Shown here piece after piece: positions 2,393-28,844 of a stretch of 48,077 nt of DNA. Both the position numbers and the translations under genes were made by a program. Where the stretch lies: IMG/VR virus record IMGVR_UViG_3300009551_000042; one strand, written 5' to 3'. The notes under the pieces were generated by a model that was not told the origin of the DNA, made no database searches, and saw nothing but the letters and a program-made list of their open reading frames with translations. How positions within the stretch are numbered: position 1 is the first letter of the stretch; each line of letters begins with the position of its first letter. The DNA comes from a virus (taxonomy: Duplodnaviria > Heunggongvirae > Uroviricota > Caudoviricetes).

Positions 2393-2914
2393 ATGAATGG
2401 GAATCTAAGTTATGAGCAAGCCGAGGCGCTAAAACTATGCGTCATCGAGAAAGAGGTCTACGACCTGGGGGCTGGAGACCTCACCCTGAGTCACCAGATC
2501 CTGGCGATGGGTGCTCGGCGCGTGATCGCTGTTGATTGCGAATACCGAAACCGTCGACCGGCAACAGCGATCGAAGGCATGCCGCTGATCGGTTGCTACT
2601 TCGAGGAGTTCTACCCGCGCGAGATCGAGATCGCTTTCATGTCGTGGCCCGAGAACCACAAGCCCATCGGGCTGGAGCGTCTCGCAAGCATGGCGCGACA
2701 TGTCGTGTACTTGGGCAGCACGTTCGGCGGCACGATGTGCGGCACACGCGGATTGTGGGAACACCTCATCACGCGCGACGTTTTGAGCTGGGTCCCTGAT
2801 GAGCGGAACAGCCTGATCATCTACGGCCCGAGGCGCACTCAACGCGCGCTCTTGCCTGACGAGCGCGCCGCGCTCGATGACGAAAGGATCCACGTATGGC
2901 CAGCCAGACTCTGA
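2393..2914 (+). CDS. class I SAM-dependent methyltransferase-like protein (paralog 1)
   Basis: Motif I VYDLGAGD, acidic residue closing beta2 (VIAVD); colinear similarity to the C-terminal domain of 6070..6969. Confidence 0.7.
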   Translation: MNGNLSYEQAEALKLCVIEKEVYDLGAGDLTLSHQILAMGARRVIAVDCEYRNRRPATAIEGMPLIGCYFEEFYPREIEIAFMSWPENHKPIGLERLASMARHVVYLGSTFGGTMCGTRGLWEHLITRDVLSWVPDERNSLIIYGPRRTQRALLPDERAALDDERIHVWPARL

Positions 2915-3342
2915 TCGATAAGTCGAGCTGGGGTGATGGGCCATGGCAACATGAGCCCGATCGCGTGGAATGGAAGGCGCACGGGTTTCACTGCCTCATC
3001 ACCCGCAACGATTTCATGGTCCATCTGTGCGGCTATGTTGCAGTGCCGCCCGGTCATCCTTGGCACGGCAAGCAACCGAACGCCGATGCTCATGGTGGTG
3101 TGAACTACGCCGAGTCATGTGCGGGCAAGGTCTGCCACGTTCCCGCCCCTGGTGAGTCTGATGACGTTTGGTGGGTCGGGTTTGATTGTGGTCACGGTGG
3201 TGACATCTCACCGGGGACAGCATGGGCCCTCAAGTCGCACGGCATGGACTATTTTTCGCGCGGCTGGTCTTACCGCGATCTGCCTTACGTGACGGCTGAG
3301 GTCGAAGGCCTCGCGCTGCAAGCGTCGAAGGCTCAGCCGTGA
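2896..3342 (+). CDS. conserved phage hypothetical protein (HLCGYV-x-HP...HGG...WWVGFDCGH)
   Basis: Cys/His motif pattern recognised as a widespread phage family of unknown function. Confidence 0.75.
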   Translation: MASQTLIDKSSWGDGPWQHEPDRVEWKAHGFHCLITRNDFMVHLCGYVAVPPGHPWHGKQPNADAHGGVNYAESCAGKVCHVPAPGESDDVWWVGFDCGHGGDISPGTAWALKSHGMDYFSRGWSYRDLPYVTAEVEGLALQASKAQP

Positions 3343-3608
3343 TCACTCGTCGGCTGTTCCTAGCTACGGCTGCGCTCGCGCCGATGATGCCGCGTATGAA
3401 GCTAACGGGGCTTGCGGCGTTGAAGGCCTGGGCTGCTGGGTGTGGGTGTCGCGTTGTACTTGGTCACCTACCGGAACTTGATGAGATGGTGATCGTGCTC
3501 GTAACGAAGGAAGGTAACCCGAGCTGGGCGAGCTTCGGTTGTCCAGTTACACGGCTTGACGAGCATTGTGATGGTGTTCTTCGATCGATCATAGGGATCC
3601 GATCGTGA
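3339..3608 (+). CDS. hypothetical protein
   Basis: GTGA-coupled at both ends. Confidence 0.6.
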   Translation: MITRRLFLATAALAPMMPRMKLTGLAALKAWAAGCGCRVVLGHLPELDEMVIVLVTKEGNPSWASFGCPVTRLDEHCDGVLRSIIGIRS

Positions 3609-4369: not shown

Positions 4370-5104
4370 ATGGTCCGCAACAAGCGCAAGGCGAAGCCCG
4401 GAAATCCAGGCCTAGCGATCGGCTACATCCGAGCCAGCAAAGAGGATCAGGCGCTCACACCTCGGGCCCAGGCCCATGCGCTCGACGCATGGGCGGAGCG
4501 CATGGGCGTGACGTTGGTTGCTGTGTTCTTTGACCTAGGCCTATCCGGCTCGCTAGGGCTCGCCGCAGACGGCTTTCCGGAGCTTGAGAAGCGGCCAGGC
4601 CTAGCCGAAGCCCTGCAAGCGCTCCGCGTGCTCCATGCTGGCTCACTGGTTGTCGCCAAGCGCGATCGGCTTGCCCGTGACGTCACCTTGGCCGGCCTAC
4701 TCGGGCGCATGGCCGGCCATGCTGGCGCACGCATCATCAGCGCCGCTGGTGAGGGCACCGAGCTTGCCGACTCCGAAGACGGCGACGACATGCGCTTGCT
4801 TTATGACATGTTCGCTCAGCGAGAGCGCCGGCTCATCCGGAGCCGCACCAAAGCGGCACTAGCGGTCAAGAAGGCGCGCGGTGAGCGCATCGGGCAAGTG
4901 CCCTACGGCTGGCGCCTGGCGGCCGACGGCGTGACCCTTGAGGTCGACCCGCTCGAACTGGCCACGCTGGAGCACATCAAAGCCGAACGGGCCCGAGGCG
5001 TGAGCCTGCGCGGCATCGTCGCGGACCTGAACGAAGCTGGAGCCTTCGCTCGCGGGTCAAGGTGGCACCTGACGACCATTGCCCGAGTGCTCCGCAAGCC
5101 GTGA
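4370..5104 (+). CDS. serine recombinase (resolvase/invertase family with short C-terminal recombinase domain)
   Basis: GYIRAS catalytic motif, D-x-G-x-SG, RPGL, KRDRLAR, ER..I..RTKAAL, G..PYG, and a terminal helix-turn-helix (W..TTIARVL). Confidence 0.92.
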   Translation: MVRNKRKAKPGNPGLAIGYIRASKEDQALTPRAQAHALDAWAERMGVTLVAVFFDLGLSGSLGLAADGFPELEKRPGLAEALQALRVLHAGSLVVAKRDRLARDVTLAGLLGRMAGHAGARIISAAGEGTELADSEDGDDMRLLYDMFAQRERRLIRSRTKAALAVKKARGERIGQVPYGWRLAADGVTLEVDPLELATLEHIKAERARGVSLRGIVADLNEAGAFARGSRWHLTTIARVLRKP

Positions 5105-5133
5105 ACGGGCCTTGATTTGTGCTGCCCGTCGGG

Positions 5134-5156
5134 CATAGGCTCCGCGCGAGGCTATG
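5134..5156. promoter_or_regulatory. palindromic operator/promoter-like element
   Basis: CATAGGCT-N7-AGGCTATG, ending on the alkB ATG; near-identical element at 11556-11579. Confidence 0.45.
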
Positions 5157-5693
5157 ACCCGAATCGTGGGCGAATGCAGGCTATACAACCTGGGCGAGGT
5201 GCTGGGCGATCTAGAGCTGCAACAGCGCAGCGTCATCGTTGGCGGTACAGCCTTCCCGCAGCCGAGGCTAACGCAGTGGTTTGGCGCCCAGGCCTACGCA
5301 TACAGCGGGCTCCGTTGGGAACCGGTCCACATGCCGCGGGTCGTGAGCGAGCTGCGCGAAGCCGTGGAGGAGCTGTGTCACGACAAGTTCAATAGCTGTC
5401 TGGTGAACTACTACCGCGACGGCTCGGATTGCGTGGGGTGGCACTCGGACAATGAGCCGATCTTCGGCCACCGCGCTGCGGTTGCGTCGCTGTCGCTCGG
5501 AGCAACGCGGCTTTTCAAGCTCCGCCGCAAGAGTGACCACGCGGAACAGCTCCGCTTTGACCTGGAACACGGCTCGGTTCTGTACATGCCGCCAGGAACG
5601 CAAGACGAATGGGAACACACGATCCCACGAACCACGGCCCACGTCGGTCCGCGGTTGAACCTCACCTTCCGCCAAACGGTGCCGCACGCATGA
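5154..5693 (+). CDS. alkB: AlkB-family 2OG-Fe(II) dioxygenase (ALKBH2/3-like)
   Basis: QPRL, YAYSG, NSCLVNYYRDGSD, WHSD (HxD), ASLSLGATR, distal H (WEH), RLNLTFR. Confidence 0.95.
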   Translation: MTRIVGECRLYNLGEVLGDLELQQRSVIVGGTAFPQPRLTQWFGAQAYAYSGLRWEPVHMPRVVSELREAVEELCHDKFNSCLVNYYRDGSDCVGWHSDNEPIFGHRAAVASLSLGATRLFKLRRKSDHAEQLRFDLEHGSVLYMPPGTQDEWEHTIPRTTAHVGPRLNLTFRQTVPHA

Positions 5694-17195: not shown

Positions 17196-17751
17196 TCCGC
17201 GTGCTGGAAGTAACGATCCTGAGCTGTGGGATCTTGAGCTCGATTGGTACTTTGGGGACTTTGAAGGGCTGTGTGGACTGCAGAGCGTAGGCACGAGCGG
17301 GGCCGGTGAGAACGCGCTACGTAAGCCAACCGAGGAAGAAAAGGCAGAGCGCCGACAGCGCATCAAAAACGGTTTCTTGCTGACGATGCCAGGGCCACCG
17401 AAGGCCGACCAACATTCTGTCAGCGCGGCCCAGGCCGACGCTGCCGCATTCCAAGCAATGGCCCACGGGGTCTTTGCACGGGGCCGCCGCATCTGGCGCA
17501 AGGTCTCAGCGATGCCCTATGGCGTCCAGCAGCTACTTCGCCAGTCTTACGAGGAGCGCTTGCGCGAGGCTGGCATTGACTGCGGTCGCCCACCGCTGCG
17601 CGACGACCAGGTCAGAGCCGCTCACCGCTGCTATCGAGGCCAGGAATACGACGTCTACTGCGACCTTGTGATTCGGGAGCTAGACCCGCCACCGCCTGAA
17701 CGAAAGCCCTGGAAGAACCCACCCGCGGCGGGAGCACAGCACCAATGGTGA
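17167..17751 (+). CDS. hypothetical protein (position resembles a late-gene regulator)
   Basis: Long ORF shortly upstream of the packaging genes; no family recognised. Confidence 0.65.
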   Translation: MSEKEKPRTNPRAGSNDPELWDLELDWYFGDFEGLCGLQSVGTSGAGENALRKPTEEEKAERRQRIKNGFLLTMPGPPKADQHSVSAAQADAAAFQAMAHGVFARGRRIWRKVSAMPYGVQQLLRQSYEERLREAGIDCGRPPLRDDQVRAAHRCYRGQEYDVYCDLVIRELDPPPPERKPWKNPPAAGAQHQW

Positions 17752-18173
17752 GGGAGCCGGTGGATTCGGTTGTGATGCGCCACGCGCTAGAAGACTCCCA
17801 AGAGCGCGACTTCGCGCGCCGGGTGGAGCCACTAGTTGCCAAGCTCCACGTTGGATACAACTACTTCGAACCGGAAGAGTTCCACGACCTAGCCTGCTAC
17901 TTCACCGAAGGTCGCGCCCGAACAGATGCTGTCAACGATGGCGTTTTCAGGGTCTCAAAGAAGGTCGACGTCATTCGTACGGGATCCGGAACTCTTCAAA
18001 CAATGACCGAGCTTTCCCGCAATTTGGGTGTAGCTCGACAGACGCTCCAAGACTGGGTCGGCACTTTGAAACTTCCGCACCGCTTCCGCGGCAAGCGAAA
18101 GGTCTATAATATCAATGAATTGCGCCGCTATCTGCTGGGCAGACGTGAAGGGGATAACAAGGGTTTACGGTAA
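17745..18173 (+). CDS. protein with C-terminal MerR/excisionase-like HTH
   Basis: TMTELSRNLGVARQTLQDWV..LKLP....GKRKVYNINELRRYL. Confidence 0.75.
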   Translation: MVREPVDSVVMRHALEDSQERDFARRVEPLVAKLHVGYNYFEPEEFHDLACYFTEGRARTDAVNDGVFRVSKKVDVIRTGSGTLQTMTELSRNLGVARQTLQDWVGTLKLPHRFRGKRKVYNINELRRYLLGRREGDNKGLR

Positions 18174-18314
18174 CCCCGCGACGAACCACCTGACTGTCGG
18201 CGTCAAAACCGTCCGCTTTCATGCGCCAATTCGTTTTCGCGGCGCTCCTGTACCTGGAGCCGTATCTAGTCTACCTGCCGTACTCCCCCGCTGTTGCTCA
18301 GCTCTGGGGGTAAC

Positions 18315-18566
18315 ATGATCTCGGTACCCGCCGGCAACGATTACACGCCATGGGTACCGCTGCAGTCCGGAGCCTGCAAAGCTTGCGGACGCGCTGGTTC
18401 CGGCAAAGACCCGAACGAAGTCTTCTCCTACCCGAAGACCGCTGAATCGCTCGTCCTGTGCACTGCGTGTGCTCGTGGGTTGACGATGTGCATAGCCAAA
18501 GAGCTGAAGCAACGGCATGCCAAAAAGCCCACGCCGCCAAAGGCTCCGGCGAAGGTATCTGCGTAA
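18315..18566 (+). CDS. zinc-finger protein
   Basis: GGGGG SD; CKAC...CTAC. Confidence 0.6.
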   Translation: MISVPAGNDYTPWVPLQSGACKACGRAGSGKDPNEVFSYPKTAESLVLCTACARGLTMCIAKELKQRHAKKPTPPKAPAKVSA

Positions 18567-18572
18567 ACGATT

Positions 18573-18650
18573 GGGCCACATTGGTGTCGATTGTGGGCAA
18601 AGCCTCAAGGTCCCCGCAAGACGAGGGTTCGATTCCCTCATGGTCCACCA
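18573..18650 (+). ncRNA. tmRNA tRNA-like-domain-only RNA (no mRNA-like domain)
   Basis: GGGCCAC-ATTGGTGTCGA-TTGTGGG-(15 nt)-CCCGCAA-GAC-GAGGG-TTCGATT-CCCTC-ATGGTCC-A-CCA: G3:U70, A73, encoded CCA, stemless D-loop ending TCGA, GAC linker, canonical T arm. Confidence 0.75.
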
Positions 18651-18731
18651 TGGTGTGAGACGCTGGTTCGAATCCAGCCTCCCAGAGCGATGCTCCAGGA
18701 GTAGCTCAGTGGGAGAGCGCACGCCGCTAAA
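18651..18731 (+). ncRNA. circularly permuted tRNA mimic (T arm before D arm, acceptor stem closed by a loop; YrlA-like topology)
   Basis: TGGTGTG-AGAC-GCTGG TTCGAAT CCAGC-CTCC CA GAGC GAT GCTC CA GGAG-TA-GCTC AGTGGGA GAGC-G-CACGCCG. Confidence 0.7.
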
Positions 18732-18735
18732 CTTC

Positions 18736-18885
18736 GCCGATGTGTCGGCCAGCTAATCCTCGGCAGGGGACCCTGGGACGCATCGGCTTTAATCGAAACA
18801 ACCAGGTAGAGCTTCGCTCCCGGTTGCGTGAGGTGAACGACATGGAAACACGTGACGTTGGCCTTCAGCCCCGCGGTGACGGGGG
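18736..18885 (+). ncRNA. run of four stem-loops in the leader of the small terminase gene
   Basis: GCCGATGTGTC/GACGCATCGGC (18736-18787); CAACC.GG..GAG/CTC.CCGGTTG (18799-18825); AGG..AACG.ACATG-GAAA-CACGT..CGTT..CCT (18831-18864); CCCC/GGGG (18869-18884). Confidence 0.45.
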
Positions 18886-18896
18886 AAATCATCACC

Positions 18897-19415
18897 ATGC
18901 CGAAGAAGAACGCTAGACAACAAGCGATCGAGATTCGCCGAGGCGAAGTGACAAAGCTTCGCACCAAAGGCAATCGCACCTATCGCGAAATAGCCGAGAA
19001 GCTCAACGTAAGTGTTGGGACTGTTGTCGGTGACATGTGGCACGTCCTCGACAATGTGCGCTCGCAACAAGAAATCGACGTCGAAAAATGTCGTGACGTT
19101 GAGCTAGCGCAACTCGACTTCTTTATGACGAAGGTTCTGGCCATCGTCACCGATGAAACAGATCGCGATCTCGTCTTGAAGGCGATTGATCGTGGCGTGA
19201 AGCTGTCCGAACGACGCTCCCGCTTGCTGGGCCTTGATGCGCCTGAGCGCCAGGAGGTTGCAACGGTCGATCTCACCGAAGCAACTCCGGAACGTGCTCG
19301 CGCGATCATGAACGAGCTGTTCCCCGCAATTGGGAATGACACAAATACTGAGGGGCAGCGGGAACAATCCCGCGAACCGGGACTTCTTGTCACGACTGGA
19401 GAGAGCGTTCCCTGA
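18897..19415 (+). CDS. terS: terminase small subunit (N-terminal HTH)
   Basis: TYREIAEKLNVSVGTV HTH, RRSRLLGLDAP motif, directly upstream of and overlapping terL. Confidence 0.75.
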   Translation: MPKKNARQQAIEIRRGEVTKLRTKGNRTYREIAEKLNVSVGTVVGDMWHVLDNVRSQQEIDVEKCRDVELAQLDFFMTKVLAIVTDETDRDLVLKAIDRGVKLSERRSRLLGLDAPERQEVATVDLTEATPERARAIMNELFPAIGNDTNTEGQREQSREPGLLVTTGESVP

Positions 19416-20697
19416 ACGGGAATTTCTAGCTCTTTCCTGCTGGCTCAATCAGTTCTACGGCTTCCAGCAAAACTGGCTGTTCGACAGAAATCGTTTCTCG
19501 ATTCTCGTCAAGTGCAGACAGATCGGTGCCTCACACACCTTTGCTGCCGCCGCAATTCTTTGGGCGCTCCTCGGTGAGGACACGTCCATTGTCAGCATTG
19601 GTCAGCGTGAAGCTGACGACGTGCTCGACAAGGTCGACAGGCACTCTCGCGCGCTTGCTCAGATGGGCAGCGTTTGGGGTGCCCAGGTCGCGAAGTCGCA
19701 AAGCCGCATCAAGCTCAACGGCGGCGGCACAATCTTTTCTCTCTCGTCCACTTCGGGTGGTCGCGGCAAGTCCGGCAATGTGTTGCTTGACGAGGCCGCC
19801 TACTACGAACACCCGGAGAAAGTCTGGGACGGCGCCTCAGCGACCACCATGCACGGTGGCTTTCGCATGCGCGTCATGTCGACACCCAACGGTGTCGGCA
19901 ACATGTTCCATCAGCTCGTGAAGTCGCCGCCTGACGGCTACCAGGTGCACAGCACCAACATTCACGAAGCTATTGCCGATGGTCTACCGGTCTCGCTCGC
20001 CGAGTGCCGCAAGATGGCCAAGGGCGATCCGCGTCTCTTTTCGCAGCTGTTCGAGTGCAAGTTTCTCGACGGCGAGATGCAATACATCCCGACGCATCTG
20101 ATCGACAACTGTTCGACAGACGCGCTGCCTGACGAGGGTGACGGGCCATATTTCGCGGGGCTTGATATCGGCAAAACCGCCGACCTCACCGTGCTCACGG
20201 TGATTCAAAAGGTCTACCGCAACGACAAGCCGCCAGTCTTCGTTGTGCGCAGCATCCAATCGCAGCGCCGCACCGACTCTGACGGGCTCGAAGCGATGGT
20301 CGCGGCCGCGTTCCAAAAGTACCAGCTTCGTCGCCTATGCGTTGACGCTACTGGTATGGGCGCGTTTCCCGCTGAGCGCATGCGCAAGCGTCACGGCCTA
20401 TCCAAGGTCGAACCGATCGCTTTCACTCTTCAGGTGAAAGAGGATCTCGCCACGGCGCTCTACACCGCGTTCGTGGAAGAAACGATCATGCTTCCGAAGA
20501 CAGCGCTCAAGGGTTCAGCCGATGGCGAACCGCAGCAGCTTGCGGAAGACATTGCGGCGCTTCGTCGCATCATCACGACAGCGGGAAACGTTCGCTACGA
20601 CGCACCGCACACCGACCAAGGTCACGCCGACCGTGCCTGGTCTCTGGCGATGGCGCTCCACGCTGGCATGACTGCCCCGTCCTACGCACGAATGTAA
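19330..20697 (+). CDS. terL: terminase large subunit (Mu gp28-like, Terminase_6 type)
   Basis: FQQNWLFD, Walker A KCRQIGAS, Walker B VLLDEAA, MSTPNG, nuclease GLDIG, CVDATGMG, HADRAWS. Confidence 0.93.
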   Translation: MGMTQILRGSGNNPANRDFLSRLERAFPEREFLALSCWLNQFYGFQQNWLFDRNRFSILVKCRQIGASHTFAAAAILWALLGEDTSIVSIGQREADDVLDKVDRHSRALAQMGSVWGAQVAKSQSRIKLNGGGTIFSLSSTSGGRGKSGNVLLDEAAYYEHPEKVWDGASATTMHGGFRMRVMSTPNGVGNMFHQLVKSPPDGYQVHSTNIHEAIADGLPVSLAECRKMAKGDPRLFSQLFECKFLDGEMQYIPTHLIDNCSTDALPDEGDGPYFAGLDIGKTADLTVLTVIQKVYRNDKPPVFVVRSIQSQRRTDSDGLEAMVAAAFQKYQLRRLCVDATGMGAFPAERMRKRHGLSKVEPIAFTLQVKEDLATALYTAFVEETIMLPKTALKGSADGEPQQLAEDIAALRRIITTAGNVRYDAPHTDQGHADRAWSLAMALHAGMTAPSYARM

Positions 20698-28372: not shown

Positions 28373-28844
28373 CGTCTCCAGGGTTCGCTCAGCTCACAAG
28401 AGATTTCTCGAAGCGCACGAAACGGCTTTCGATCGGGTTCTAGATCCTGGTCCGATTCTGCGTGACGTAAAGCAGCACATCGCCTCCGGCATTCTGCTGC
28501 AGATGCGCACGTTCCGGCTGATGCACAGCACGGACGCGAAGCTAATTCGAACGGCAAACCGTTCGCTGGTCCGTGTCACGAACACGGCCAAGTACGCATG
28601 GGCTCAAGAGAAGGGCTCGGGCAAGTACGGCCCCAAGGGAACCAAGTACCCGATCACGCCAAAGCGCGCCGGCTATCCGTTGCGCTTCTATTCATGGCGC
28701 CGCGGGACGTGGGTCTCGACGTACAAAGTAATGCACCCAGGCGTCAAGCCGACTCACTTCCTCGAAGTGGCGACCGACCTGGTGTTCCAAACGCGACTCG
28801 CGTTGTTGCGCGCTGCCATGAATTCGGCAGCGCGCCATTTCTGA
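28350..28844 (+). CDS. HK97 gp10-like neck/tail-completion protein
   Basis: AKYAWAQEKG and HPGVKPTHFL motifs. Confidence 0.65.
   Translation: MTVGSVVDVSRVRSAHKRFLEAHETAFDRVLDPGPILRDVKQHIASGILLQMRTFRLMHSTDAKLIRTANRSLVRVTNTAKYAWAQEKGSGKYGPKGTKYPITPKRAGYPLRFYSWRRGTWVSTYKVMHPGVKPTHFLEVATDLVFQTRLALLRAAMNSAARHF

What the first reader, a model, noticed from the sequence alone, without database searches (positions are those of the whole stretch)
18573..18650. Phage-borne tmRNA reduced to its tRNA-like domain (no mRNA domain)
Seen: a 78-nt gene with acceptor stem GGGCCA(C)/(A)TGGTCC including G3:U70, discriminator A73 and encoded CCA; an 11-nt stemless D-loop ATTGGTGTCGA; a 7-bp helix TTGTGGG/CCCGCAA; the GAC trinucleotide; and a T arm GAGGG-TTCGATT-CCCTC. 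Established: this order (D-loop ending UCGA, helix 2a, GAC, T arm, Ala identity G3:U70) is the tmRNA TLD, where helix 2 normally leads into several hundred nt of pseudoknots and tag ORF; mRNA-less tmRNAs are known from jakobid mitochondria. Here helix 2a is capped by only 15 nt, so there is no resume codon or tag. Inference: an alanylatable SmpB/EF-Tu ligand that either rescues stalled ribosomes without tagging or acts as a decoy that blocks host trans-translation or tRNA/tmRNA-targeting defence. I am not aware of such an element being described in phages, but cannot search.
Basis: partly seen in the sequence, partly recalled or inferred. Interest (0 to 1): 0.88.

Follow-up and report, generated by a model that had tools for sequence, protein, structure and literature searches.

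The report
Phage tag-less mini-tmRNA gene
This uncultured soil phage carries a real 78-base gene for only the alanine-accepting, tRNA-like end of the bacterial ribosome-rescue RNA (tmRNA). The type is already published for mycobacteriophage DS6A, and it probably competes with the host's own rescue and protein-tagging system.

Summary
It is a genuine tmRNA reduced to its tRNA-like domain (TLD-only, no coding part).

- **Match to tmRNA:** Rfam's tmRNA model aligns to it end to end with 308 central positions deleted (25.9 bits, below the curated cut-off of 47).
- **Independent model:** a covariance model built from 21 other such elements, with the window left out and phage DS6A included, scores it 61.8 bits (E 1.6e-14). 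It is the only significant hit in 48 kb.
- **Covariation:** across 21 sequences all three helices are kept by compensatory changes, and G1:C72, G2:C71 and G3:U70 never vary.
- **Carrier:** a tailed phage with Mu-like head and baseplate genes from a rhizosphere metagenome. A relative (TerL 59% identical) has a homologue at the same place upstream of the terminase genes.

DS6A's "TLD only" tmRNA is published, a similar RNA is reported to inhibit E. coli tmRNA, and this scan has met such genes on other phage DNA. Whether it titrates SmpB or rescues ribosomes without tagging is untested.

Directly 3' lies a circularly permuted tRNA-like module with a capped acceptor stem (YrlA-like shape, no Ro60 motif or gene found).

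The parts
18573..18650 (+). TLD-only (tag-less) mini-tmRNA gene, 78 nt, CCA encoded
   Evidence: Rfam tmRNA global match at 25.9 bits. R1 scores it 64.8 bits. Leave-one-out R2 scores it 61.8 bits, E 1.6e-14.
18573..18579 (+). Acceptor stem 5' strand GGGCCAC, pairing with 18640-18646
   Evidence: Read directly. G1:C72, G2:C71 and G3:U70 are invariant in 21/21 family members, and positions 4-7 covary. Position 7 here is a C/A mismatch.
18580..18590 (+). Stemless D-loop analogue ATTGGTGTCGA (GG plus the TCGA motif of tmRNA)
   Evidence: TCGA is invariant in the first 15-sequence alignment. It aligns to the UUCGAC of the Rfam tmRNA consensus.
18591..18619 (+). Helix 2a (TTGTGGG/CCCGCAA) capped by 15 nt that hold an A-rich AAAGCC box and a 3-bp hairpin (GCC/GGT)
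   Evidence: MFE fold. All 5 modelled pairs of helix 2a covary in the family. The A-rich xCC box recurs in most members.
18620..18639 (+). GAC junction and T arm GAGGG-TTCGATT-CCCTC
   Evidence: The second T-stem pair covaries (UA 9, AU 5, GC 4, CG 3).
18640..18650 (+). Acceptor 3' strand ATGGTCC, discriminator A73, encoded CCA
18651..18726 (+). Adjacent circularly permuted tRNA-like module. Order: closing stem GGTGTG (18652-18657) with CACGCC (18720-18725); GAC; T arm 18662-18678; capped acceptor-like hairpin 18679-18701; TA; D arm 18704-18718; G.
   Evidence: Rfam YrlA RF02553 at 24.8 bits, E 0.005, below the cut-off of 69. The centroid fold keeps the closing stem and T arm. R2 picks up the GAC+T arm at 18659-18678. 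It is not part of the mini-tmRNA, but it starts 1 nt after its CCA.
18736..18787 (+). Strong compound hairpin followed by TTTAAT. Possibly the 3' end of the small-RNA cassette.
   Evidence: Folds. The consensus terminator scan did not call it.
18294..18566 (+). Upstream ORF (90 aa, Cys-rich, no family). Its stop codon ends 6 nt before the RNA gene.
   Evidence: A similar peptide is encoded at the same place in L252.
18852..20697 (+). Downstream HTH protein in the small-terminase position (18852-19415) and large terminase (19330-20697)
   Evidence: Pfam HTH/Sigma70_r4 hits below cut-off and Terminase_6N/6C. phrog_645.

Best explanation
The 78-nt gene encodes a homologue of the tRNA-like domain of tmRNA with the whole messenger part (pseudoknots, resume codon, tag frame) missing. 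It is the same kind of RNA as the published 'TLD only' tmRNA of mycobacteriophage DS6A.

**Shown here:** the sequence, its fit to tmRNA and mini-tmRNA models, conserved structure with compensatory changes, invariant alanine identity elements, its phage setting, and a syntenic homologue in a related phage.

**Inferred, step by step:**
1. It is transcribed on the strand of all neighbouring genes, between the last small ORF and the terminase genes.
2. RNase P cuts at G18573, and the 3' end is trimmed to the encoded CCA at 18650.
3. Host AlaRS charges it through G3:U70 and A73.
4. Host SmpB binds its elbow and helix 2a, and EF-Tu binds the 12-bp acceptor/T stack.
5. It therefore competes with host tmRNA for SmpB and for stalled ribosomes.
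6. Because it carries no resume codon, no ssrA degradation tag is added.

The net effect I think most likely is inhibition of host trans-translation tagging during infection. My odds are about 0.9 that it is a functional TLD-only tmRNA homologue, and about 0.55 that its main action is competition or titration rather than productive rescue.
For: **Fit to models**
- Rfam tmRNA aligns end to end with only the middle deleted.
- Model R2, built without the window, scores it 61.8 bits, E 1.6e-14.
- With R1, true TLD-only elements score 53.8-88.1 bits. Forced alignments to the 3' ends of full-length tmRNAs reach at most about 48 bits, and ordinary tRNAs score in the low 30s or below.

**Conserved structure**
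- In the 21-sequence alignment 98.9% of cells are paired, against 48-61% in the slid controls.
- 10 of 17 pairs change on both sides, and all 5 pairs of helix 2a covary.
- G3:U70 is kept in 21/21 sequences.
- RNAalifold predicts the same 17 pairs de novo.

**Link to the published case**
- R1, built without DS6A, finds one strong element in the DS6A genome: L250:28478-28560, 68.2 bits.
- In five other carrier phages, two of them complete genomes, the best tmRNA-model hit is the roughly 81-nt element itself. Three of these exceed Rfam's cut-off (75.3, 52.4, 52.3 bits), and none of the five encodes SmpB.

**Synteny**
- L253 (TerL 59% identical) has an 80-nt homologue (52.9 bits) just upstream of the HTH/terminase genes. 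Its acceptor, helix 2a and T stems all differ from the window's but still pair.

**Literature**
Against: - There are no expression, charging or binding data for this RNA.
- Its Rfam tmRNA score (25.9) is below the curated cut-off (47).
- The seventh acceptor pair is a C/A mismatch, where its nearest look-alikes (L074, L130) have U:A. This could be early decay.
- Only 1 of 7 phages with related terminases has a clear homologue, so the gene is dispensable for this phage lineage.
- The family sample was gathered with patterns that fixed part of the T arm and either the 3' CCACCA or the 5' GGGCC. Invariance at those positions is therefore partly by selection.
- The alignment used for pair counts was fitted to the model.
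- The inhibition experiment is known to me only through two citing papers, because Mao et al. 2009 is not held.
Confidence: 0.65

Rival explanations
1. Tag-free ribosome rescue. The charged mini-tmRNA enters stalled ribosomes with host SmpB and accepts the nascent chain on its alanine. The peptidyl-RNA is then released and hydrolysed. Ribosomes are freed and phage proteins made from broken messages escape the ssrA degron.
For: - All elements needed for charging and A-site entry are kept: G3:U70, A73, CCA and a 12-bp acceptor/T stack.
- A TLD-only RNA accepts peptide in vitro (PMC3895274).
- CDS-less tmRNAs are kept in jakobid mitochondria and some plastids together with SmpB, and are read as still helping with incomplete mRNAs (PMC11915505; PMC3590771).
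Against: - No step after peptidyl transfer is known for such RNAs.
- The reported effect of a similar RNA in E. coli is inhibition, and it did not depend on chargeability (PMC4131195).
- Strict conservation of G3:U70 fits this rival, but it also fits a decoy that must pass for tmRNA.
Confidence: 0.2
2. Decoy or trigger-blocker for host defence or RNA-repair proteins that recognise tmRNA or tRNA shape, possibly acting together with the adjacent permuted tRNA-like RNA. Candidate targets are systems with SmpB-like sensor domains and tRNA-directed nucleases.
For: - CoCoNuT type II/III-A defence systems carry SmpB-like domains predicted to bind tmRNA (PMC11090510).
- The gene sits 1 nt from a second tRNA mimic.
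- About half of the family members lie inside phage tRNA arrays (11 of 23).
Against: - This is purely contextual; no defence system or host is known for this phage.
- The adjacency to a permuted tRNA-like module is not general. Among the mini-tmRNA loci found, only L130 shows such modules.
Confidence: 0.08
3. A decayed tRNA-Ala or other non-functional tRNA-derived relic.
For: - ARAGORN and Rfam gathering thresholds call nothing.
- There is a C7/A66 mismatch.
- The element is sporadic among related phages.
Against: - It has no D stem and no 5-bp/7-nt anticodon arm.
- The tmRNA model beats the tRNA model of the same clan.
- tmRNA-specific motifs (TCGA, GAC) are present.
- Helix 2a covaries across 21 diverged sequences, which neutral decay would not keep.
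Confidence: 0.05
4. A fragment of a host ssrA gene carried as an attachment site (attP) of an ssrA-integrating phage.
For: tmRNA genes are common integration sites (PMC11915505 abstract).
Against: - An attP would hold only the 3' part, whereas here the matching 5' acceptor strand and D-loop analogue are present.
- The element lies next to the terminase genes, 13 kb from the only recombinase gene found (4370-5104).
- No full tmRNA with these ends was found in genome contigs.
Confidence: 0.02

Closest known systems
TLD-only (CDS-less) tmRNA of Mycobacterium phage DS6A (tmRNA Website tmID 11587; Mao et al. 2009 as cited in PMC4131195; PMC11915505)
   Same: It is phage-borne and about 80 nt long. 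It has an acceptor stem with G3:U70, a stemless D-loop analogue with TCGA, a short capped helix 2a and a T arm, and no tag frame. One model detects both elements (DS6A 68.2 bits, window 64.8 and 61.8 bits).
   Different: - DS6A: 83 nt, ends ACUA (CCA not encoded), junction CAC instead of GAC, lies between gp33 and DNA polymerase III gp34 in an actinophage of M. tuberculosis, and that phage also encodes an RtcB-like ligase.
- Window: 78 nt, CCA encoded, lies upstream of the terminase genes in an unrelated Mu-like-head phage, and is followed by a permuted tRNA-like module.
Full-length bacterial and phage tmRNA (Rfam RF00023; e.g. the annotated 403-nt tmRNA of Mycobacterium phage PegLeg)
   Same: The two ends of the molecule are the same: acceptor stem, D-loop analogue, helix 2a, GAC and T arm. 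They align to model positions 1-28 and 337-374.
   Different: The 308 central model positions (pseudoknots, resume codon, tag ORF) are replaced by a 15-nt cap. The score is below the family cut-off.
CDS-less tmRNAs of jakobid mitochondria and of Mallomonadaceae plastids (PMC3590771; PMC11915505)
   Same: They are tmRNA reduced to little more than the TLD, with no tag frame. The plastid ones are about 65 bp.
   Different: They are organellar genes retained with a nucleus-encoded SmpB, so they are presumably the cell's own rescue factor. The phage RNA acts in a cell that already has a full tmRNA.
YrlA-type bacterial Y RNAs (Rfam RF02553; Chen et al. 2014, PMC4201824). This comparison concerns the neighbouring element 18651-18726 only.
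   Same: The order is T arm, capped acceptor-like stem, then D arm, closed by a stem at the anticodon-stem position. tRNA core nucleotides are kept (U8, A14, G15/C48, G18G19, TTCGAAT loop).
   Different: It scores 24.8 bits against a cut-off of 69. No GNCGAAN0-1G Ro60-binding box is present. No TROVE/Ro60 gene was found among the window ORFs tested.

Membership tests
tmRNA (RF00023), tRNA-like domain | 7-bp acceptor stem with G3:U70, discriminator A73 and a 3' CCA | tested here: met
   six standard pairs including G3:U70, A73, and CCA encoded. Pair 7 is C/A. G3:U70 is present in 21/21 family members.
tmRNA (RF00023), tRNA-like domain | Stemless D-loop analogue ending in UCGA(C/U), helix 2a, and a G/A-AC junction before a 5-bp T stem with a UUCGAnU loop | tested here: met
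   The global alignment to the Rfam consensus covers these blocks. Helix 2a covaries in 5/5 modelled pairs.
tmRNA (RF00023), whole molecule | mRNA-like domain: resume codon, tag reading frame with a stop, and pseudoknots | tested here: not met
   Only 15 nt lie between the strands of helix 2a. 308 model positions are deleted. ARAGORN finds no tag peptide.
tmRNA (RF00023), whole molecule | Score at or above Rfam's gathering cut-off (47 bits) | tested here: not met
   25.9 bits. Three of five sister elements in other phages do pass (75.3, 52.4, 52.3 bits).
TLD-only (CDS-less) tmRNA, DS6A type | An RNA gene of about 65-95 nt made of the TLD plus a short cap, recognisable as a homologue of the DS6A element | tested here: met
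   Model R2 (DS6A plus 20 IMG/VR elements, window excluded) scores it 61.8 bits, E 1.6e-14, full length.
TLD-only (CDS-less) tmRNA, DS6A type | Carried by a phage that has no full-length tmRNA or SmpB of its own | tested here: met
   The window has terminase, portal, Mu F, SU10 capsid, tape measure and baseplate genes. There is no other tmRNA-like hit in the window. No SmpB family hit was found among the 49 ORFs scanned. The window is part of a 112-kb contig, the rest of which was not seen.
TLD-only (CDS-less) tmRNA, DS6A type | Binds SmpB, is (or is not) alanylated, and inhibits host trans-translation | not testable with these tools
   Known only from the literature for a similar RNA (PMC4131195, PMC11915505).
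Ordinary tRNA-Ala | Cloverleaf with a D stem and a 5-bp anticodon stem with a 7-nt loop bearing an NGC anticodon | tested here: not met
   ARAGORN finds none. The Rfam tRNA model is outscored by tmRNA in the same clan. The 11-nt D region has no stem, and the only internal helix is 7 bp with a 15-nt cap.
YrlA Y RNA (RF02553), neighbouring element 18651-18726 | tRNA-like domain in the order T arm, capped acceptor-like stem, D arm | tested here: met
   Alignment to RF02553, direct reading and fold.
YrlA Y RNA (RF02553), neighbouring element 18651-18726 | GNCGAAN0-1G box and Ro60-binding stem; gene next to rsr (TROVE); score at or above the cut-off of 69 | tested here: not met
   No such box lies 5' of the T arm (motif from PMC4201824). 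It scores 24.8 bits. No TROVE hit was found in the ORFs tested.

The most novel reading that the evidence does not exclude
The mini-tmRNA and the permuted, acceptor-capped tRNA-like RNA that starts one base after its CCA are cut from one precursor and act as a two-part 'tRNA-mimic cassette'. The first RNA is charged and really enters stalled ribosomes, ending translation with a single alanine and no degron. The second occupies host proteins that read tRNA shape (repair, modification or defence factors). Together they would reprogramme host translation quality control late in infection, rather than merely soaking up SmpB.
Probability: 0.12. Interest if true: 0.7.

Novelty: new member of a known kind. 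Interest (0 to 1): 0.45.

Why it matters
Trans-translation is the main ribosome-rescue and protein-tagging path of bacteria, and it is a drug target. A natural, phage-made RNA of about 80 nt that keeps exactly the parts needed for alanylation and for SmpB and EF-Tu binding, but drops the messenger part, is a ready-made probe and possible inhibitor of that path.

The published record rests on one phage (DS6A) and one set of E. coli experiments. This case adds several points:
- An example in an unrelated phage, with a syntenic homologue in a relative.
- Clear covariation support for the structure.
- The observation that ARAGORN and Rfam at its curated cut-offs report nothing here, so such genes go unannotated. 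The DS6A GenBank record itself does not annotate its copy.

This single instance does not change what is known about mechanism.

Tried and rejected
- **Standard annotation tools.** ARAGORN on the window found nothing. Rfam at gathering thresholds found nothing.
- **Searches for relatives of the phage.** Megablast of 17500-19500 against phages gave no match. A TerL-based locus search in IMG/VR found no relatives.
- **Whole genome.** None is held for this window. The window's own TerL could not be looked up as an encoding contig.
- **Own element in genome contigs.** A pattern for it gave 0 hits, so there is no host clue. L253's genome is not held.
- **Sequencing runs.** One DNA holder was listed (a rhizosphere metagenome, probably the source). 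No RNA holder is listed, so expression could not be examined and read laying was not used.
- **Mao et al. 2009.** The paper is not held, so the inhibition experiment is cited second-hand.
- **Mid-scoring R1 hits (30-48 bits).** On inspection these were 3' ends of full-length tmRNAs forced into a global alignment, or ordinary tRNAs. They were left out of the family.
- **Related phages L254-L258.** They have no mini-tmRNA and no tRNA.
- **Cluster M mycobacteriophage hits.** These are 3' ends of annotated or unannotated full-length tmRNAs.
- **ORFs overlapping the RNA genes on either strand.** They have no Pfam family, so a coding explanation was dropped.
- **attP fragment and degenerate tRNA-Ala readings.** Both were rejected; see the rival explanations.
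- I did not build a third model for the neighbouring permuted module, because generic T-arm and D-arm similarity would make a hit uninformative. No complex prediction was run, because the tool takes no RNA chain.

Full report
**What is in the sequence.**
- The acceptor stem is GGGCCAC (18573-18579) with ATGGTCC (18640-18646). It includes G3:U70 and has a C7/A66 mismatch at its base.
- A73 and an encoded CCA end the gene at 18650.
- An 11-nt stemless D-loop analogue ends in TCGA.
- A 7-bp helix (TTGTGGG/CCCGCAA) is capped by 15 nt.
- GAC follows, then a T arm GAGGG-TTCGATT-CCCTC.

The minimum-energy fold gives these helices plus a 3-bp hairpin in the cap. Its z-score of -1.64 is not informative. 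ARAGORN finds no tRNA or tmRNA anywhere in the window, and Rfam at curated thresholds finds nothing.

**Is it tmRNA-like beyond chance?** With permissive thresholds on 18450-18950, the best Rfam match is tmRNA RF00023. It aligns globally (model 1-374) to exactly 18573-18650 with 308 central positions deleted, at 25.9 bits and E 1.1e-8. That is below the cut-off of 47, but it beats the other families of the tRNA clan. So the element matches both ends of tmRNA and nothing of its middle.

**A family exists.**
- A pattern scan of IMG/VR for a short distance between TCGA and a GAC-T-arm-acceptor-CCACCA end returned 115 loci.
- Most are 3' ends of full-length tmRNAs. Fourteen distinct sequences have a complete two-stranded acceptor stem within 77-89 nt.
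- A second scan anchored on the 5' end (GGGCC...) added seven more distinct sequences, several of them without an encoded CCA.
- I built a covariance model R1 from 15 sequences.
- With R1, true TLD-only elements score 53.8-88.1 bits. Forced alignments to full tmRNA ends reach at most about 48 bits, and tRNAs score lower still.

**Structure is conserved by compensatory change.** On 21 distinct sequences:
- 98.9% of cells are standard pairs, against 48-61% when partners are slid by 1-3 columns.
- 10 of 17 pairs change on both sides.
- All five modelled pairs of helix 2a covary, as do acceptor pairs 4-7 and the second T-stem pair.
- G1:C72, G2:C71 and G3:U70 never vary.
- RNAalifold predicts the same 17 pairs on its own.

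Three caveats apply. The alignment was fitted to the model. The search patterns fixed part of the T arm and either the 3' or the 5' end. Shuffle counts are not probabilities. G3:U70 was never fixed on both sides by a pattern, so its invariance carries weight.

**Prior art.** The literature search and earlier notes of this scan both led to mycobacteriophage DS6A.
- Hudson, Lau and Williams list it as 'TLD only'. [quoted passage not shown]
- The 2025 tmRNA database paper calls it CDS-less and says it inhibits endogenous tmRNA in E. coli. It also reports plastid forms of about 65 bp and the tag-less mitochondrial forms (PMC11915505).
- I fetched the DS6A genome. R1, built without it, finds one strong element at 28478-28560 (68.2 bits), unannotated between gp33 and gp34.
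- I then rebuilt the model with DS6A and without the window. It scores the window element 61.8 bits, E 1.6e-14, full length, and this is the only significant hit in the 48 kb with filters off.

The window element is therefore a member of the DS6A kind. Mao et al. 2009 itself is not held.

**Setting.** The window is a tailed phage.
- It encodes a large terminase (Terminase_6N/6C), a portal-region protein, Mu F-like protein, SU10-type capsid, tape measure, Mu GpP-like and J-like baseplate proteins. It also encodes a small serine recombinase and an AlkB-like oxygenase.
- No ORF tested matches SmpB or TROVE/Ro60.
- Its DNA is held by one rhizosphere metagenome run, and no RNA run is listed.
- The RNA gene begins 6 nt after the stop codon of a 90-aa Cys-rich ORF. 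It lies about 200 nt upstream of an HTH protein in the small-terminase position. All of these are on one strand.
- No consensus promoter or terminator was called nearby. Co-transcription and excision by RNase P and 3' trimming are therefore inferred, not shown.

**Relatives.** The terminase has relatives at 55-72% identity in metagenomes and MAGs.
- One of them (L253, 59%) has an 80-nt mini-tmRNA (52.9 bits) at the same place, just upstream of the HTH/terminase pair. All of its stems differ from the window's yet still pair.
- The closest relative (L252, 72%) has only a 55-nt degenerate G3:U70 hairpin-plus-T-arm there, and a tRNA-Met.
- Five others have nothing.

The gene is thus an accessory, mobile feature of this phage group.

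**Wider pattern.**
- Among 23 elements, 11 have tRNA genes within 2 kb, always on the same strand, and 12 stand alone.
- ARAGORN misses 22 and calls one a tRNA-Leu.
- None of the loci holds a full tmRNA.
- In five carrier contigs, two of them complete genomes, the best tmRNA-model hit is the mini element itself. Three exceed Rfam's cut-off, and none encodes SmpB.

Carriers must therefore rely on host SmpB, AlaRS and EF-Tu.

**Mechanism.** The RNA keeps what established work says is needed for alanylation (G3:U70, A73), for EF-Tu (the acceptor/T stack) and for SmpB (elbow and helix 2a; crystal structures cited in PMC11090510).
- A TLD-only RNA accepts the nascent peptide in vitro (PMC3895274).
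- Because there is no resume codon, translation cannot switch to a tag frame.
- The reported inhibition by a similar RNA did not depend on chargeability. I therefore favour competition with host tmRNA for SmpB and stalled ribosomes (about 0.55) over productive tag-free rescue (about 0.2).
- A decoy role towards defence systems with SmpB-like sensor domains (PMC11090510) is possible but has no support here.
- Decay of a tRNA-Ala and an attP fragment are contradicted by the anatomy and the covariation.

**The neighbour.** One base after the CCA begins a second tRNA mimic (18651-18726). In order it has a closing stem GGTGTG/CACGCC, GAC, a T arm, a capped two-part hairpin in the acceptor position, TA, a canonical D arm and G.
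- It matches Rfam YrlA at 24.8 bits (E 0.005, cut-off 69).
- It keeps the tRNA core nucleotides.
- It lacks the GNCGAAN0-1G box of Ro60-binding Y RNAs (PMC4201824), and no Ro60 gene was seen.
- Modules with the same order, followed by a C(C)TAAAC box, recur in many IMG/VR tRNA arrays and have no Rfam family.
- Earlier notes of this scan describe such modules with other protein partners.
- I did not resolve what it does. Its adjacency to a mini-tmRNA is not general.

**Verdict.** The kind is already known, so this is a new member. The scan has found the same kind before on other phage DNA. Interest is moderate: the class is under-studied and invisible to standard annotation, but this instance adds no new mechanism.

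Noticed in passing
window 18651-18726 (+): A circularly permuted tRNA-like module starts 1 nt after the mini-tmRNA. Its order is closing stem, GAC, T arm, capped acceptor-like hairpin, TA, D arm. It has YrlA-like topology (24.8 bits, below cut-off), no Ro60-binding box and no Ro60 gene in the ORFs tested.
   Followed up: partly
window 18736-18837 (+): A strong compound hairpin (18736-18787) is followed by TTTAAT. After it, block 18792-18837 is 78% identical to L252:1807-1856 just before the HTH/terminase genes. It may be the end of the RNA cassette or a leader or packaging signal.
   Followed up: partly
L130:150-300, 866-975, 1228-1300, 3262-3420: The tRNA array of a 97-kb IMG/VR phage holds four copies of one frame: 5' GGTGTAAT..GAGGGTTACTTC and 3' CCTTCnCCGnnTTGGATAT, flanked by complementary acceptor-like strands. 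Two copies carry a T arm, capped hairpin and D arm insert. ARAGORN calls one of them tRNA-Lys. The same array holds a mini-tmRNA (2385-2467).
   Followed up: partly
IMG/VR loci L138, L149, L153, L157, L165, L180, L199, L200, L222, L227, L231, L249 and others: A module recurs with the order variable-arm-like hairpin, GAGGTC, T arm, capped hairpin, TAGCTCAG..AGAGC, GC(C)TAAAC. In L222 it is closed by a perfect 9-bp stem. The 7 sample loci scanned had no Rfam family at gathering thresholds other than tRNA. A shorter form (for example L150, L188, L196) has only the D arm enclosed by a 5-bp stem.
   Followed up: partly
L142:~2440-2590(-) and L186:~2740-2890(-): A T arm identical to the window's second T arm (GCTGGTTCGAATCCAGC) is followed by an acceptor 3' strand plus ACCA, a spacer of about 30 nt, then the complementary 5' strand with G3:U70, TA and a D arm. 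This is either two adjacent genes sharing one Ala-type acceptor stem or a permuted Ala-type tRNA-like gene.
   Followed up: no
L253:4788-4892: Immediately upstream of the syntenic mini-tmRNA lies another tRNA-like element. It has a 5-bp acceptor-like stem GGCAG/CTGCC, a 7-bp hairpin and a T arm GAAGG-TTCGAAT-TCTTC. Neither ARAGORN nor Rfam calls it.
   Followed up: no
L252:1228-1282: In the phage with the closest terminase (72%), the equivalent place holds a 55-nt element with GGGCCCG/CGGGTCC (G3:U70) and a T-arm-like hairpin but no D-loop analogue or helix 2a (R2 13 bits). It may be a further reduced or decayed form.
   Followed up: partly
L250:28478-28560 (DS6A JN698994) and L251:301-1503: The GenBank record of DS6A does not annotate its published TLD-only tmRNA. 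The same phage encodes an RtcB-like RNA ligase (gp76). RtcB's most frequent bacterial target is reported to be tmRNA (PMC11090510 citing Kotta-Loizou 2022).
   Followed up: no
L268:540-630 (Microbacterium phage Vitas MN183281.1 39269-39359): An unannotated 91-nt element lies just upstream of tRNA-Asn. It has an Ala-type acceptor stem (GGGCCAG/CTGGTCC, G3:U70), ACCA and a T arm like the window's, but a different interior without the TCGA motif (R2 38.4 bits). It is a cultured phage that could serve for experiments.
   Followed up: partly
window 18852-19415 (+): The HTH protein in the small-terminase position matches phrog_645, whose PHROG label is 'Rnase E' (E 8e-20). The label looks doubtful for a protein at this position.
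   Followed up: no
window 4370-5693 (+): A small serine recombinase (Resolvase N-terminal domain, 244 aa) lies next to an AlkB-like 2OG-Fe(II) oxygenase (179 aa) in the early region.
   Followed up: no
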